IMG/VR virus record: IMGVR_UViG_2547132218_000005
Span: 1 to 4,140 of that record
Source of the DNA: a virus
Taxonomy: Duplodnaviria; Heunggongvirae; Uroviricota; Caudoviricetes
Strand: one strand, 5' to 3'
Length of the DNA: 4,140 nucleotides
Part shown: positions 261 to 4,140 of the stretch, one piece after another
Position numbering within the stretch: position 1 is the stretch's first letter
Layout: each line of letters begins with the position of its first letter
The notes under the pieces: model-generated
Told to the model about the DNA's origin: nothing
The model's input: the letters and a program-made list of their open reading frames with translations, nothing else
Databases searched by the model: none
Position numbers and translations under genes: made by a program

Positions 261-824
261 TCATTGGTTCTCCCCCTGTGTCGCTTCTACTGCGATCTGA
301 CTGGCGTATTCGTTAATGGTAACGATAAGTTCTTGCTCGGCCTCATCCAGACAACTACCGATACCTCGCCTGTCCACTTCAGAAGCATCGAAATCTGCAC
401 GAAGCCTGGCGACCTTCAGGATTGCGGACAACACCTCATCAGGGATTGCCGGAGAGTTGGTTGACGTTTCCGAGATTATCCGAAAATTATTGGTTGACGA
501 ACCCTTATTTTCCCGAAAGTTTCCAGCCTGAAGCATGGCGGCGCGGTGACACCAGATAATCCAGCCAAGCGCCATATCCCATGCCATGTATTCTCTATCG
601 CCATTTTTTGCTCTGCGGCGATCTACAGATTCCCCGAAACGCTTCTCCATAAATAATTCATAGGCTGCCCGTTCATCCGATACTGATGCCAGTGATGCCA
701 GTGCAATTTTTAATGCGGTAAGCATGTTGTTTTGATCTTCATCGAGTCCGAACGGTATTTCATCCCGTGATGACTCAATTCCGGTAATCGTGTTCTGTAG
801 CCATTCTTTGGTTAATTCAGTCAT
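261..824 (-). CDS. Hypothetical protein (187 aa)
   Basis: ATG 824..822; long open frame with balanced composition. Weak SD (GTAGTGAAAA) and a GC stem-loop 9 nt upstream of the ATG. No family recognised. Stop TGA 263..261. Confidence 0.65.
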   Translation of the reverse strand: MTELTKEWLQNTITGIESSRDEIPFGLDEDQNNMLTALKIALASLASVSDERAAYELFMEKRFGESVDRRRAKNGDREYMAWDMALGWIIWCHRAAMLQAGNFRENKGSSTNNFRIISETSTNSPAIPDEVLSAILKVARLRADFDASEVDRRGIGSCLDEAEQELIVTINEYASQIAVEATQGENQ

Positions 825-833
825 TTTTCACTA

Positions 834-849
834 CCGCCCTTTCGGGCGG
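834..849. other. GC-rich stem-loop (6-bp stem CCGCCC/GGGCGG, 4-nt loop), function unassigned
   Basis: ccgccc-tttc-gggcgg at 834..849. On the minus-strand transcript it reads CCGCCC-GAAA-GGGCGG (GNRA-type loop) and ends 9 nt before the ATG of the 187-aa gene. No U-tract follows on either strand, so it is not a canonical intrinsic terminator. Confidence 0.5.
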
Positions 850-950
850 TCTCCTGATGTTCTGAGGGTGCAGGAATCCCTCCGGTTAAGGATTTAATAA
901 AAATCATTTCTGATTTAAATTTTCAGTGTTTAGTTGTTGGTTTATAGCCT

Positions 951-1262
951 TTATGCTTCGGCCTTATTTCTCAGCCATACACAAACAGGACCATCTTCGG
1001 TGTCATGTATCGAACCGATAAACCATCCCTCACCTTCTGGTCGCTCAGGTTCCCATGCTGAAATATCAGGGCCATCTGCGTCCAGATTAAAATCATCTTC
1101 ATCCATACTACGGATAGCCCACTGAAGATTATTTTTCTCCATCCAGGCGTTAAACTCTTCCGTTGAAATATATTCCCGACCATCACAGAATTTTTCATAT
1201 TCAGGATGCGTCCAGCAGCCATATTCATTACGTTCCACTGGCATTTCTTTAATTACGCTCAT
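951..1262 (-). CDS. Hypothetical acidic protein (103 aa)
   Basis: ATG 1262..1260 preceded by ATAAGGGGGGTAA (SD-like). Acidic, Trp-rich sequence (EYGCWTHPEYEKFCDGREY ... WEPERPEGEGWFIGSIHDTEDGPVCVWL). I do not recognise the family with confidence; resemblance to small phage DUF-type proteins is only a vague impression. The alternative 85-aa ORF at 971..1228 is in another frame of the same region and is less protein-like. Confidence 0.65.
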   Translation of the reverse strand: MSVIKEMPVERNEYGCWTHPEYEKFCDGREYISTEEFNAWMEKNNLQWAIRSMDEDDFNLDADGPDISAWEPERPEGEGWFIGSIHDTEDGPVCVWLRNKAEA

Positions 1263-2786: not shown

Positions 2787-3449
2787 TCAAATAAAACCAG
2801 CTGCCTTCCGGCGTTCGTATTCCTGTTTCAGCCGTTCAATTGGCGTTGGCCCTTGCGGGTGTTTCGCCCCTTCCAGTTGTCGTCGCACTGGCGGAACACT
2901 CATCCCGTTACCAACATGCTTTGCCCATTTCGTCAGTTGCCGTTCCGCAAGTCGTTTTAACTCACCTTGCGTCATCTGGCGCTCAATCCCTCTGGTACGC
3001 ATTTCGAGGCAGATGTGGTACAGCACAGGCTGTGGCCACGGGTATTTATCACTCCCGTCGTATCGCCAGGATTCATTGCGCCAGCGCCGGTACTCTTCCA
3101 TCACGGCATCCACCGTAAGACCAAATGGATTTGCCCCACTCTCCGAAATCAGCGCAACAAACTCAGCCAGGTCCGGGGGCCACGTTTCACCCGCCCGGCA
3201 GCGGTCCATGCACTGACGGCACACCAGACGGATTTGCTGTTCAGTCATCGCACCAATCTGGGCAATCCAGAGCTTCGAAGGTGCGGCCCCGTTCTTCTGA
3301 GTCCAGCGGTTCGAATACACCTCCCCCATGAGCTCCCACAGCTTCCAGGCCGTTTCCGTTGCTGATAAATCCGTTGTCACGTTCCCACTGTTCGCGTGCA
3401 GCCCGGATTTCCTGAACTGCCCGTGATGCCGTGCCACCTGATGCTGCAT
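2787..3449 (-). CDS. Replication protein P-like DnaB helicase loader
   Basis: 220-aa ORF. The C-terminal ~150 aa align with lambda P as I recall it (DKYPWPQPVLYHICLEMRTRGIERQMTQGELKRLAERQLTKWAKHVGNGMSVPPVRRQ versus ESYPWKSNAHYWLVTNLYQNMRANALTDAELRRKAADELVHMTARINRGEAIPEPVKQ, and PPDLAEFVALISESGANPFG versus PSPGQFVAWCREEASVTAGLP). ATG at 3449..3447 is preceded by CAGCAAGGGGGGAAGCC (SD-like, ~5 nt spacer). An alternative start is the internal ATG at 3248..3246 (Met68), which sits 2 nt upstream of the initiator stop codon (ATGACTGA) but has a weak SD. Start-site choice is unresolved. Confidence 0.8.
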   Translation of the reverse strand: MQHQVARHHGQFRKSGLHANSGNVTTDLSATETAWKLWELMGEVYSNRWTQKNGAAPSKLWIAQIGAMTEQQIRLVCRQCMDRCRAGETWPPDLAEFVALISESGANPFGLTVDAVMEEYRRWRNESWRYDGSDKYPWPQPVLYHICLEMRTRGIERQMTQGELKRLAERQLTKWAKHVGNGMSVPPVRRQLEGAKHPQGPTPIERLKQEYERRKAAGFI

Positions 3450-4140
3450 GGCTTCCCCCCTTGCTGACTGGTTTTACCTGTGCCCTGACGTGCTGCACGT
3501 GGCGGGCAAATTTCTGCTCCCACTGAACCTGCGTGAAAACCTTCCCCTCCGCCATCCAGTAATCCCGGAATGCGGCAAGCTCAGCAGGTGTAAATTCCGG
3601 CTCAGGCAGAGCCATACCCCACACTGCTGCCCGTTGTCGAAAATCCGGCGACGGCTGCCAGACAGTAGTCATCGAAAATTTCCCGATCGGTTCGCTCAGG
3701 CCGTCCAGGTATTCAGGTTCGGCTGTCTGCAACGGCGCACCATTCGACTCACTGGTCGGAATACTCTCGCGCGCGTTATGTGTGGGGTTTAATTCTGTAT
3801 CTGTATCTTTATCTGTATCTTTATCTGTCGTGACTTGTCGTGACAGATGCGTGACACGTCGTGACTCATCGTGACAATCAGCATTATGTTTCCGCAGCTT
3901 TTCCCGCTCCCGCTGCGCTCTCTTGCGCTCTGCCGGGGATTTTGCCGTTTGCGAAACGTTACCATTGTCCTCTTTCAGCACCTGACGTTTTTCCCATCCG
4001 GAAATAAGGTCACCATCCAGAACCCGCCCCTGCATTGCATGCAAAATTGAATCAATTACGTCTTCCGTCACATCAAGCGCACTTGCTAAATCTTCCGTCG
4101 TGACATCAATGTGACCACGTAGTGACACGCCGTGACATGT
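3241..4140 (-). CDS. Replication initiator (lambda O-like role), 5'-partial, with C-terminal DnaT-like (primosomal protein I) domain
   Basis: ORF track gives 3241..4128, but its first codon is GTG and the frame stays open upstream to the window edge (in-frame codons 4140..4129 read T-C-H-G), so the true start is beyond 4140. The segment IGKFSMTTVWQPSPDFRQRAAVWGMALPEPEFTPAELAAFRDYWMAEGKVFTQVQWEQKFARHVQHVRAQV aligns closely with the C-terminal domain of E. coli DnaT as I recall it ([63 protein letters not shown]). Position directly upstream of a P-like loader gene fits the lambdoid O-P arrangement. The middle of the protein is low-complexity (K/R/E-rich, TDKD repeats) and coincides with the DNA repeats described below. 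Stop TGA at 3243..3241. Confidence 0.8.
   Translation of the reverse strand, partial: TCHGVSLRGHIDVTTEDLASALDVTEDVIDSILHAMQGRVLDGDLISGWEKRQVLKEDNGNVSQTAKSPAERKRAQREREKLRKHNADCHDESRRVTHLSRQVTTDKDTDKDTDTELNPTHNARESIPTSESNGAPLQTAEPEYLDGLSEPIGKFSMTTVWQPSPDFRQRAAVWGMALPEPEFTPAELAAFRDYWMAEGKVFTQVQWEQKFARHVQHVRAQVKPVSKGGSHAASGGTASRAVQEIRAAREQWERDNGFISNGNGLEAVGAHGGGVFEPLDSEERGRTFEALDCPDWCDD
3794..3829. repeat. Tandem hexamer repeat (TCTGTA/TCTTTA) x 6, AT-rich, abutting iteron cluster A
   Basis: tctgta tctgta tcttta tctgta tcttta tctgtc at 3794..3829, about 70% A+T. On the coding (minus) strand it encodes the TDKDTDKDTD segment of the initiator. Confidence 0.8.
3828..3875. repeat. Iteron-like direct repeat cluster A: 5 x (T/G)CGTGAC at 10-11 bp spacing; candidate origin iterons
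   Basis: Units ctgTCGTGAC (3825..3834), ttgTCGTGAC (3835..3844), agatGCGTGAC (3845..3855), acgTCGTGAC (3856..3865), tcaTCGTGAC (3866..3875). GTGAC cores end at 3834, 3844, 3855, 3865, 3875. Because the spacing is not a multiple of 3, the same DNA motif is read in all three frames of the initiator gene (C-H, S-R, V-T, L-S-R, V-T), so the repetition is at the DNA level, not a peptide repeat. Confidence 0.6.
4098..4136. repeat. Iteron-like direct repeat cluster B: 4 x GTGAC at 10-11 bp spacing, may continue beyond the window end
   Basis: ccgTCGTGAC (4095..4104), atcaATGTGAC (4105..4115), cacgtAGTGAC (4116..4126), acgcCGTGAC (4127..4136). Same orientation and core as cluster A; flanking bases are more variable. 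The window ends 4 nt after the last copy. Confidence 0.5.

What the first reader, a model, noticed from the sequence alone, without database searches (positions are those of the whole stretch)
825..950. AT-rich 126-bp spacer ending in a GC stem-loop abutting the start codon of the 187-aa gene
This is the only sizeable non-coding gap inside the gene array. It is markedly AT-rich (taataaaaatcatttctgatttaaattttcag) and ends in a stable CCGCCC-GAAA-GGGCGG hairpin 9 nt from the ATG, sequestering the only G-rich stretch near the start. Possibilities are an internal promoter plus a 5'-UTR structure that gates translation of the 187-aa gene, an RNA processing or stability element, or a factor-dependent terminator or antitermination target like those in lambdoid nin regions. 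The best promoter-like hexamers I could find on the minus strand (TTTAAA then TTAAAT or TAAATC, 16-17 bp apart) are weak.
Basis: seen in the sequence. Interest (0 to 1): 0.4.

Follow-up and report, generated by a model that had tools for sequence, protein, structure and literature searches.

The report
Conserved intergenic cassette of lambdoid prophages
The gap between two small prophage genes holds one copy of a short, unannotated linker found in about 44% of complete E. coli genomes; it most likely supplies a hairpin-bridged ribosome-binding site for whichever gene follows and marks where these phages swap genes, which is a modest finding rather than a startling one.

Summary
Window 825-950 is the largest gap in a minus-strand gene array of E. 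coli O157 prophage Sp14. It ends in CCGCCC-GAAA-GGGCGG (834-849), 9 nt before the ATG of the 187-aa gene.

The new point is that 832-894 is a copy of a conserved 63-nt cassette. It reads AATCCTTAACC-GGAGGG-loop-CCCTC-linker-AGGAG(G/A)-hairpin-TA.
- It occurs in 2372 of 5426 complete E. coli genomes, up to 5 copies each, and was unannotated in all 12 sampled matches.
- It is co-oriented with transcription in both ea (pL) and nin (pR) regions.
- It lies between 14 upstream and 16 downstream sequence clusters.
- Homology stops at the 3' edge of the hairpin, and a start codon follows 6-11 nt later.

Best reading: a portable translation-initiation region. A conserved Shine-Dalgarno lies 22-27 nt from the AUG, with the hairpin looped out between them, as in T4 genes 38 and 25. 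The cassette also acts as a recombination linker.

No promoter, terminator, nut site, Rfam family or listed orphan Hfq site is supported. Covariation is not significant and nothing has been tested experimentally. I rate it a new variant of known kinds, of modest interest.

The parts
951..1262 (-). Upstream 103-aa gene (ECs_2757, phrog_1372, unknown function). Its stop TAA is at 953-951.
895..950 (-). 5' segment of the spacer: AT-rich, with a C/A-rich tract (about 926-943) and a weak AU hairpin AAAUCA-GAAA-UGAUUU (901-916, -2.5 kcal/mol). It travels with the 103-aa gene in other phages, not with the cassette.
832..894 (-). 63-nt conserved cassette core: AATCCTTAACCGGAGGGATTCCTGCACCCTCAGAACATCAGGAGACCGCCCGAAAGGGCGGTA.
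878..883 (-). SD1 (GGAGGG). In other phages it lies 5-8 nt before the start codon of an inserted gene. Here no start follows and it forms the 5' arm of hairpin 1.
864..882 (-). Hairpin 1: GAGGG-AUUCCUGCA-CCCUC (-5.8 kcal/mol, about 43% formed in the predicted ensemble). Its loop varies in length and sequence between copies.
851..855 (-). SD2 (AGGAG; AGGAGA here, AGGAGG in most copies), directly 5' of hairpin 2 and 26 nt from the AUG in linear sequence.
833..850 (-). Hairpin 2: (A)CCGCCC-GAAA-GGGCGG(U). This is the stem-loop of the finding. Homology with other phages ends at its 3' edge.
825..832 (-). A-rich single-stranded run (AGUGAAAA) between hairpin 2 and the start codon. No Shine-Dalgarno lies in it.
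261..824 (-). Downstream 187-aa gene (ECs_2756), ATG at 824-822. Its N-terminal 'MTELTKE...' module is shared with many DUF551/EaA-type prophage proteins.

Best explanation
The spacer has two parts. Its promoter-proximal part (895-950) is the AT-rich 3' flank that travels with the 103-aa gene. Its promoter-distal 63 nt (832-894) are one copy of a conserved, repeated, unannotated intercistronic cassette of Escherichia, Shigella and Citrobacter lambdoid (pro)phages.

Shown:
- The cassette lies inside co-directional gene arrays of the early-left (ea) and early-right (nin) operons, always in the direction of transcription.
- Sequence similarity between phages ends right after the hairpin.
- A start codon follows 6-11 nt later, whatever the gene.

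Inferred:
- The cassette is a portable translation-initiation region. The conserved Shine-Dalgarno AGGAG(G/A) sits 22-27 nt from the AUG.
- The very stable 16-18-nt hairpin between them is looped out, which brings the Shine-Dalgarno to an effective 6-11 nt from the AUG. This is the arrangement demonstrated for T4 genes 38 and 25.
- At the least, the hairpin gates initiation.
- Because the same 26-110 nt recur between different accessory genes, the cassette also serves as a patch of homology where Red/RecET-type recombination swaps, inserts and deletes genes. This would explain why relatives of the 103-aa and 187-aa genes sit in the nin region here and in the ea region of mEp460.

My rough split: the cassette identity is near certain, a role in translation initiation about 0.6, and the looped-out split-RBS mechanism about 0.35-0.4.
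For: Prevalence and context:
- The 63-nt core is found in 2372 of 5426 complete E. coli genomes, at 3011 places, up to 5 per genome. All 12 sampled matches lie under no annotated feature.
- It also occurs in E. albertii and E. fergusonii plasmid records.
- The exact-match scan of species-representative genomes found cassette copies in E. coli, Shigella flexneri and Citrobacter braakii, plus one MAG contig labelled Collinsella.
- Among about 186 sampled copies there are 14 upstream and 16 downstream sequence clusters.
- nin-region examples are. ea-region examples are.

Junction and spacing:
- Diversity jumps from 0.14 or less per segment inside the cassette to about 0.45 or more right after GGGCGGTA.
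- Rac-SA53 homology to the window starts at 834.
- The start codon lies 6-11 nt after the hairpin in 159 of 164 copies with a downstream ORF. The other 5 are an ambiguous ATGAATG.

Shine-Dalgarno:
- The run between hairpin and AUG has no Shine-Dalgarno in 11 of 12 junction types.
- SD2 binds the 16S 3' end at -10.3 kcal/mol in the common form and -7.4 in the window.
- All 177 copies with a start codon 5-12 nt after the hairpin keep GGAG. Two of 7 copies without one have lost it (Fisher p = 0.0012; the copies are not independent).
- Homologues of two downstream gene families that lack the cassette use an ordinary unstructured Shine-Dalgarno at normal spacing.

Structure and constraint:
- The geometry matches T4 gene 38 (22 to 5 nt) and gene 25 (27 to 11 nt) (PMC3014915).
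- Hairpin 2 is formed with probability about 1.0.
- Stems and Shine-Dalgarno segments are 2-4 times less variable than loop 1 and the linker. The variation in the 5' arm of stem 2 is mostly C to U, which keeps G-U pairs on the transcribed strand.
- The six substitutions in the Citrobacter copy all fall in loop 1 or the linker.
- Spacer diversity (0.07-0.09) is well below that of third codon positions in the adjacent gene (0.216).

Repetition: the 26-nt core is directly repeated 1072 nt apart in phage ArgO145, bracketing three genes.
Against: - Covariation is not demonstrated. There is one double-sided change in 12 pairs, and the shuffles are not exceeded.
- RNAalifold prefers partly different pairings for the 5' half.
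- The taxonomic range is narrow and the copies are at least 90% identical. Conservation could reflect recent ancestry or gene conversion rather than function.
- In the window itself SD2 is the weaker AGGAGA, and it is predicted mostly paired (unpaired probability 0.08-0.3 for AGGA).
- GGCGGU in the 3' arm of the hairpin is an alternative Shine-Dalgarno (-7.8 kcal/mol) at canonical spacing. This fits an inhibitory hairpin equally well.
- One junction type carries its own GGAG after the hairpin.
- No transcript, ribosome or reporter data exist for this locus.
Confidence: 0.45

Rival explanations
1. Inhibitory hairpin. The working Shine-Dalgarno is GGCGGU in the 3' arm, at canonical spacing. The hairpin masks it, so the downstream gene is translated poorly, or only when a ribosome or standby 30S on the upstream AGGAGG opens the stem.
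For: GGGCGGU pairs with the 16S 3' end at -7.8 kcal/mol, about equal to SD2 in the window (-7.4). The stem is formed with probability about 1. In the version with the 70-aa gene, that gene's stop codon lies only 10 nt before the stem, so a terminating ribosome could open it.
Against: A perfect AGGAGG with no start codon of its own is kept just 5' of the stem in all 177 copies that precede a start. A -12 to -14 kcal/mol mask would nearly silence at least eight unrelated gene families. Relatives of those genes elsewhere carry ordinary open Shine-Dalgarno sites. In the window the nearest upstream stop codon is 101 nt from the stem, so coupling cannot work there.
Confidence: 0.2
2. Functionless linker or relic. 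The cassette is kept only because recombination and gene conversion between phages copy it around. The hairpin is a leftover, for example of a truncated terminator, with no present RNA role.
For: There is no significant covariation. All copies are at least 90% alike and confined to close relatives. The same GGAGGCCGCCCGAAAGGGCGG string in unrelated bacteria is the 5' part of ordinary terminators that continue with CCTCC and a T run. Junctions sit at the hairpin edge.
Against: Stems and Shine-Dalgarno segments vary less than loop 1 and the linker. Variation is biased to C to U changes that keep pairing on the sense strand. GGAG is lost only where no start codon follows. The start codon is always 6-11 nt away despite many independent junctions.
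Confidence: 0.15
3. mRNA processing or stability element. RNase E cuts in the AU-rich segment. The GC hairpins then protect the downstream message at its 5' end, or the upstream message against 3' exonucleases, setting different lifetimes for neighbouring accessory genes.
For: An AU-rich single-stranded stretch lies next to two stems. The whole spacer, including the AT-rich part, is more conserved than synonymous sites in the adjacent gene.
Against: The stems are too short for RNase III. Nothing ties the element to 3' ends. It always abuts a start codon, which a pure stability element need not do. No RNA-end data are available.
Confidence: 0.12
4. Internal sigma-70 promoter in the AT-rich half, giving the 187-aa gene its own transcript with the hairpins as its 5' leader.
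For: This is the lowest-GC stretch of the window. Weak hexamers TTTAAA and TTAAAT lie 16 bp apart.
Against: The consensus scan finds no minus-strand site here. The hexamers lack A at -11 or T at -7. In related copies the corresponding hexamers are 18, 16 or 11 bp apart. In 145 of 179 copies a same-strand ORF of at least 50 codons ends within 80 nt upstream. No orphan Hfq peak is listed here in the uninduced lysogen.
Confidence: 0.05
5. Terminator, or a target of antitermination (nut- or put-like), as in lambdoid nin regions.
For: It has a GC hairpin with a GAAA loop, as in boxB-like stems, and lies in a nin-equivalent region between the replication genes and Q.
Against: No U tract follows the stem on either strand, and the terminator scan does not call it. 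I found no boxA by inspection. The loop is GGCA, UAAA or AAAA in some copies. The element sits kilobases from pL and pR at variable places. It occurs in Stx phages of a type that carries N and in this prophage with no annotated N. It can occur twice within one operon.
Confidence: 0.03

Closest known systems
Split ('accommodated') ribosome-binding sites of T4 genes 38 and 25 (Nivinskas et al. 1999; Malys and Nivinskas 2009; reviewed in PMC3014915)
   Same: The Shine-Dalgarno lies 22-27 nt from the AUG. A stable hairpin between them reduces the effective spacing to 5-11 nt. The site is an intercistronic junction of a phage operon.
   Different: The T4 cases are each tied to a single gene and are proven by mutation and probing. 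Here one cassette precedes many unrelated genes, nothing is tested, and the 3' arm itself resembles a Shine-Dalgarno.
PeSL 'mobile regulatory cassettes' of T4-type phages (PMC2839356, PMC4122927)
   Same: A conserved motif of about 100 bp fills the gap from a stop codon to the next ATG. It contains an AT-rich part, a GC stem-loop and a Shine-Dalgarno, flanks variable orphan genes in plastic regions, and is repeated within a genome. Recombination between copies would explain gene shuffling.
   Different: [quoted passage not shown] Neither was found here. The hosts here are temperate lambdoid phages, and mini-circles or exchange have not been shown.
Intrinsic terminators of the form GGAGGCCGCCCGAAAGGGCGGCCTCC-TTTT found in many bacteria
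   Same: The first 21 nt, including the stem and GAAA loop, are identical.
   Different: The phage cassette stops at GGGCGG. It has no CCTCC complement and no T run, and a start codon follows.
Lambda nut boxB and HK022 put RNA elements (comparison from my own knowledge)
   Same: They are small stem-loops in early-operon transcripts. BoxB has a GNRA-like loop and put has two stems.
   Different: Those lie just downstream of pL and pR, once per operon, and act on RNA polymerase. This element is distal, variable in place, abuts start codons, and its loop is not always GNRA.
Short homology patches at mosaic joints of lambdoid phages, used by Red-beta or RecT recombination (PMC3945230, PMC2327257)
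   Same: A short conserved sequence lies between exchangeable modules, and the joints fall at gene boundaries.
   Different: Those studies concern diverged coding homology. Here the patch is one specific non-coding cassette with its own internal architecture.

Membership tests
Split RBS with intervening hairpin (T4 gene 38/25 type) | A sequence complementary to the 16S 3' end lies too far (more than 15 nt) upstream of the start codon. | tested here: met
   AGGAG at 851-855 is 26 nt from the AUG. The distance is 22-27 nt in other copies. Duplex energy is -7.4 kcal/mol here and -10.3 in the common form.
Split RBS with intervening hairpin (T4 gene 38/25 type) | A stable hairpin between the Shine-Dalgarno and the AUG reduces the spacing to about 5-11 nt. 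| tested here: met
   The stem is 16-18 nt, -12.4 to -14.1 kcal/mol, with pairing probability about 1. The residual spacing is 6-11 nt. This is prediction only.
Split RBS with intervening hairpin (T4 gene 38/25 type) | No usable Shine-Dalgarno at normal spacing. | tested here: inconclusive
   The single-stranded run has none, but GGCGGU in the 3' arm scores -7.8 kcal/mol.
Split RBS with intervening hairpin (T4 gene 38/25 type) | Destabilising the hairpin lowers translation, and restoring it rescues translation. | not testable with these tools
   This needs reporter fusions and toeprinting.
PeSL mobile regulatory cassette | A conserved intergenic motif from stop codon to next ATG, repeated and flanking variable genes. 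| tested here: met
PeSL mobile regulatory cassette | A strong sigma-70-like promoter (-35 and -10 boxes) inside the motif. | tested here: not met
   No site in the scan. The hexamers are weak and their spacing is not conserved.
PeSL mobile regulatory cassette | A stem-loop that terminates or attenuates transcription. | tested here: inconclusive
   A stable stem is present but has no U tract.
PeSL mobile regulatory cassette | Recombination between copies (mini-circles, deletions, replacements). | not testable with these tools
   The evidence is only indirect: joints at the cassette edges, and direct repeats bracketing genes.
Intrinsic terminator | A GC-rich hairpin followed by a U tract. | tested here: not met
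   UAGUGAAAAAUG follows the stem on the minus strand and UCUCCUGAUG on the plus strand. The scan does not call it.
nut site (boxA + boxB) | A boxA motif upstream, a boxB stem with a GNRA-like loop, a promoter-proximal position in pL and pR, and a cognate N protein. | tested here: not met
   I saw no boxA by eye. The loop varies (GAAA, GGCA, UAAA, AAAA). The element lies about 4 kb downstream of cro. No N gene is annotated in this prophage.
Known prophage sRNAs (AgvB, AsxR, EcOnc, Pas, DicF, STnc100) and other Rfam families | A match to the family model, or a listed orphan Hfq site at the locus. | tested here: not met
   No Rfam hit in the spacer even at E up to 10. No peak near 2,702,085-2,702,210 in the Sakai table of orphan Hfq-binding sites. 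That table only lists sites more than 100 bp from, or antisense to, coding regions, so it could not have included most of this 126-nt spacer. Those sRNAs lie downstream of PR'.
Sigma-70 promoter | -35 and -10 hexamers at 16-18 bp, with A at -11 and T at -7. | tested here: not met

The most novel reading that the evidence does not exclude
The cassette could be more than a passive patch of homology. It could be the lambdoid counterpart of an integron- or PeSL-like gene-cassette system, in which the hairpin edge is an actively used exchange site for accessory genes between the pL and pR operons and between phages. Alternatively it could be a shared cis-regulatory RNA through which one phage or host factor co-regulates translation of a whole set of otherwise unrelated accessory genes.
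Probability: 0.1. Interest if true: 0.65.

Novelty: new variant of a known kind. Interest (0 to 1): 0.35.

Why it matters
If the reading is right, nearly half of sequenced E. coli strains carry an unannotated, reusable "start-site plug". It lets lambdoid phages attach almost any small accessory gene to their early operons, and the ribosome-binding geometry has so far been proven only in T4.

This would give a concrete, testable sequence basis for two things:
- how ea and nin genes are shuffled between phages and between the two early operons;
- how their expression is set.

For annotation, it marks gene starts and mosaic joints and should not be mistaken for a terminator. If it proves to be only a linker, it is still a useful marker of recombination joints.

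Tried and rejected
- **Rfam.** An E-value scan of the whole window gave nothing in the spacer.
- **Promoter and terminator scan.** Nothing at the spacer on the coding strand.
- **Known prophage sRNAs.** AgvB, AsxR, the EcOnc set and the Pas sRNAs lie downstream of PR' or elsewhere. No peak near the Sp14 spacer appears in the Sakai table of orphan Hfq sites. EcOnc11, EcOnc20 and EcOnc23 were checked individually and lie in late, nutL and tail regions.
- **Small ORF.** A 28-codon ORF (ATGATTTTT...AAATGA, overlapping the ATG) exists in the window. Its start is ACG or GTG in close relatives and absent in the other spacer type. Loop 1 has 1-2-nt indels, so it is not coding.
- **Covariation.** The test on 79 distinct copies was not significant. 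RNAalifold gave a weak, partly different consensus.
- **Literature.** Searches for the sequence strings and for the locus tags found no relevant paper.
- **Homologue search with the 187-aa protein.** The 120 hits listed were close E. coli or Salmonella mosaics. They gave no distant loci in which to look for an independent SD-hairpin-AUG design.
- **Species-representative genome scan.** Hits outside the enterics were ordinary terminators, not the element.
- **K-12 Rac.** Its annotation shows no nin-region genes after ydaW, so I did not expect a copy there and did not scan it. K-12 transcript maps therefore could not be used.
- **Genes inserted after the cassette in other phages.** PADLOC gave no hits. 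Pfam recognised only a QueH-like protein and DUF7167.

Full report
**Where the window comes from.** The window is 100% identical over the tested 700-1100 to a lambdoid prophage of many E. coli O157:H7 genomes. In strain Sakai this is prophage Sp14, next to serU and mtfA. All genes run on the minus strand as part of the rightward early operon. The order is cro, ydaT-like, a DnaT-like O protein (4128..3241), a P protein, DUF1627, four small unknowns and the 103-aa gene (1262..951). Then come the gap, the 187-aa gene (824..261), a small membrane ORF, and further on hokD, DUF968, rusA and Q. The gap is therefore in the nin-equivalent region. In Sakai it is NC_002695.2 2,702,085-2,702,210, between ECs_2757 and ECs_2756.

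**Checking the observation.** The gap 825-950 (126 nt) and the hairpin CCGCCC-GAAA-GGGCGG are as described. The hairpin is at 834-849, or 833-850 with an A-U pair, and ends 9 nt before the ATG.
- The stem is worth -12.4 to -14.1 kcal/mol and is formed in essentially the whole predicted ensemble.
- Only the promoter-proximal half is AT-rich: 888-950 is 23.8% GC, the lowest in the window, while 825-887 is 57% GC.
- A hairpin of this kind appears in about 42% of shuffled windows, so it is not remarkable by itself.
- The claim that it holds the only G-rich stretch near the start is wrong. AGGAG abuts it at 851-855, and GGAGGG lies at 878-883.

**What comparison shows.** BLAST of the spacer against phage genomes gave two full-length matches, mEp460 and Rac-SA53. 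It gave 17 records that match only the last 67-78 nt or so. The annotated contexts show this stretch between quite different genes.
- After the replication genes: 640R1, 666R9, Rac-SA53 and the window.
- In the leftward ea region near int: mEp460, ArgO145 and phiSTEC1589.

It always lies in the direction of the flanking genes and always ends at a start codon. Three scans of viral contigs with anchors in different parts brought in about 180 copies. The consensus core is AATCCTTAACC-GGAGGG-ATTTCTGCA-CCCTC-AGAACATC-AGGAGG-CCGCCC-GAAA-GGGCGG-TA. It corresponds to window 832-894.

A 63-nt query finds this core in 2372 of 5426 complete E. coli genomes, at 3011 places and up to five per genome. All 12 sampled matches lie under no annotated feature. 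It also occurs in a few Escherichia plasmid records, including E. albertii and E. fergusonii. An exact-match scan of one genome per species found cassette copies in E. coli, Shigella and Citrobacter, plus one MAG contig labelled Collinsella. The other 30 hits, from unrelated phyla, are ordinary terminators in which the same string continues with CCTCC and a T run.

**The cassette is modular.** Upstream of the core most copies have a second conserved AT-rich piece, CTGAATAATTAAATTYAG...AAAATTT, which begins at the stop codon of whichever gene precedes it. The window has a different AT-rich piece (895-950) that travels with the 103-aa gene.

In some phages the two halves of the core are separated by a 70-aa gene. 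GGAGG then sits 7 nt before that gene's ATG. The gene ends TAATGTC and is followed by AGGAGG-hairpin-TAGTTAA-ATG of the next gene. So GGAGGG is a working Shine-Dalgarno elsewhere, which I call SD1. The unit TCAGGAGG-hairpin-TA, containing SD2, is a separate 26-nt module. It is repeated 1072 nt apart in ArgO145, bracketing three genes. In the window the halves are joined by about 22 nt that make hairpin 1 (GAGGG/CCCTC, 864-882).

**Junctions.** The sampled copies have 14 upstream and 16 downstream sequence clusters. The downstream genes fall into at least eight unrelated families. In a set of copies collected without bias on the core, diversity is 0.04-0.16 per segment inside the cassette. It jumps to about 0.45 or more right after GGGCGGTA. 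Rac-SA53 homology to the window begins at 834. In a few phages the sequence after the hairpin is a convergent gene pair or a QueH-like gene, again joined at the hairpin edge. In 145 of 179 copies a same-strand ORF of at least 50 codons ends within 80 nt upstream. The listed exceptions I inspected follow truncated gene remnants on the same strand.

**Evidence bearing on mechanism.**
1. A start codon lies 6-11 nt after the hairpin in 159 of 164 copies that have a downstream ORF. The intervening run is A/U-rich and has no Shine-Dalgarno in all but one junction type.
2. SD2 is nearly invariant and pairs with the 16S 3' end at -10.3 kcal/mol, or -7.4 for the window's AGGAGA. All 177 copies followed by a start codon keep GGAG, while 2 of 7 copies without one have lost it (Fisher p = 0.0012; the copies are not independent).
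3. Relatives of two of the downstream gene families that lack the cassette have ordinary open Shine-Dalgarno sites at normal spacing.
4. The linear distance from SD2 to the AUG is 22-27 nt. It is 6-11 nt with the hairpin looped out. These are the numbers reported for T4 gene 38 (22 to 5) and gene 25 (27 to 11), where the intervening hairpin was shown to enhance initiation (PMC3014915).
5. Stems and Shine-Dalgarno segments vary 2-4 times less than loop 1 and the linker. The exception, the 5' arm of stem 2, varies mostly by C to U changes that keep G-U pairs on the transcribed strand. The six differences in the Citrobacter copy all fall in loop 1 or the linker.
6. Among 11 haplotypes that share the 103-aa gene, spacer diversity is 0.07-0.09, against 0.216 at third codon positions.

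**Evidence against, or missing.** The covariation test is not significant: there is one double-sided change, and the shuffles reach the observed values. RNAalifold proposes partly different weak pairings, CCUU with GGAG and CUC with GAG. In the window's own fold SD2 is mostly paired, with UCCU of the leader or with CCUG. The 3' arm GGCGGU is a possible Shine-Dalgarno at canonical spacing (-7.8 kcal/mol). There are no transcript, ribosome or reporter data, and I found no paper that mentions the sequence or the locus tags.

**Other readings tested.**
- Promoter: the scan finds none on this strand. The candidate hexamers are weak, and their spacing is 18, 16 or 11 bp in related copies.
- Terminator: no U tract follows the stem on either strand.
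- nut- or put-like site: the place in the operon is wrong, I saw no boxA, the loop varies (GAAA, GGCA, UAAA, AAAA), the element occurs with and without an N gene, and it can occur twice in one operon.
- Known sRNAs: no Rfam match. No peak at this locus appears in the Sakai table of orphan Hfq-binding sites. That table only lists sites more than 100 bp from, or antisense to, coding regions, so most of this spacer fell outside its filter. The sRNAs it describes lie downstream of PR'.
- Small protein: the 28-codon ORF of the window is not conserved.

**Comparison with what is known.** In how it probably works, the closest match is the split ribosome-binding site of T4 genes 38 and 25. In genome organisation and likely evolutionary role, it resembles the PeSL cassettes of T4-type phages. 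Those are conserved stop-to-ATG motifs with an AT-rich part, a GC stem-loop and a Shine-Dalgarno. They flank orphan genes and mediate shuffling (PMC2839356). It is not a PeSL by definition, because the promoter was tested and not found and terminator function is not supported. Short homology is known to be enough for Red-beta-driven exchange between lambdoid phages and prophages (PMC3945230). This makes the linker role plausible but unproven.

**Verdict.** What is new is that the hairpin belongs to a widespread, unannotated, modular cassette. I rate it a new variant of known kinds, with interest 0.35.

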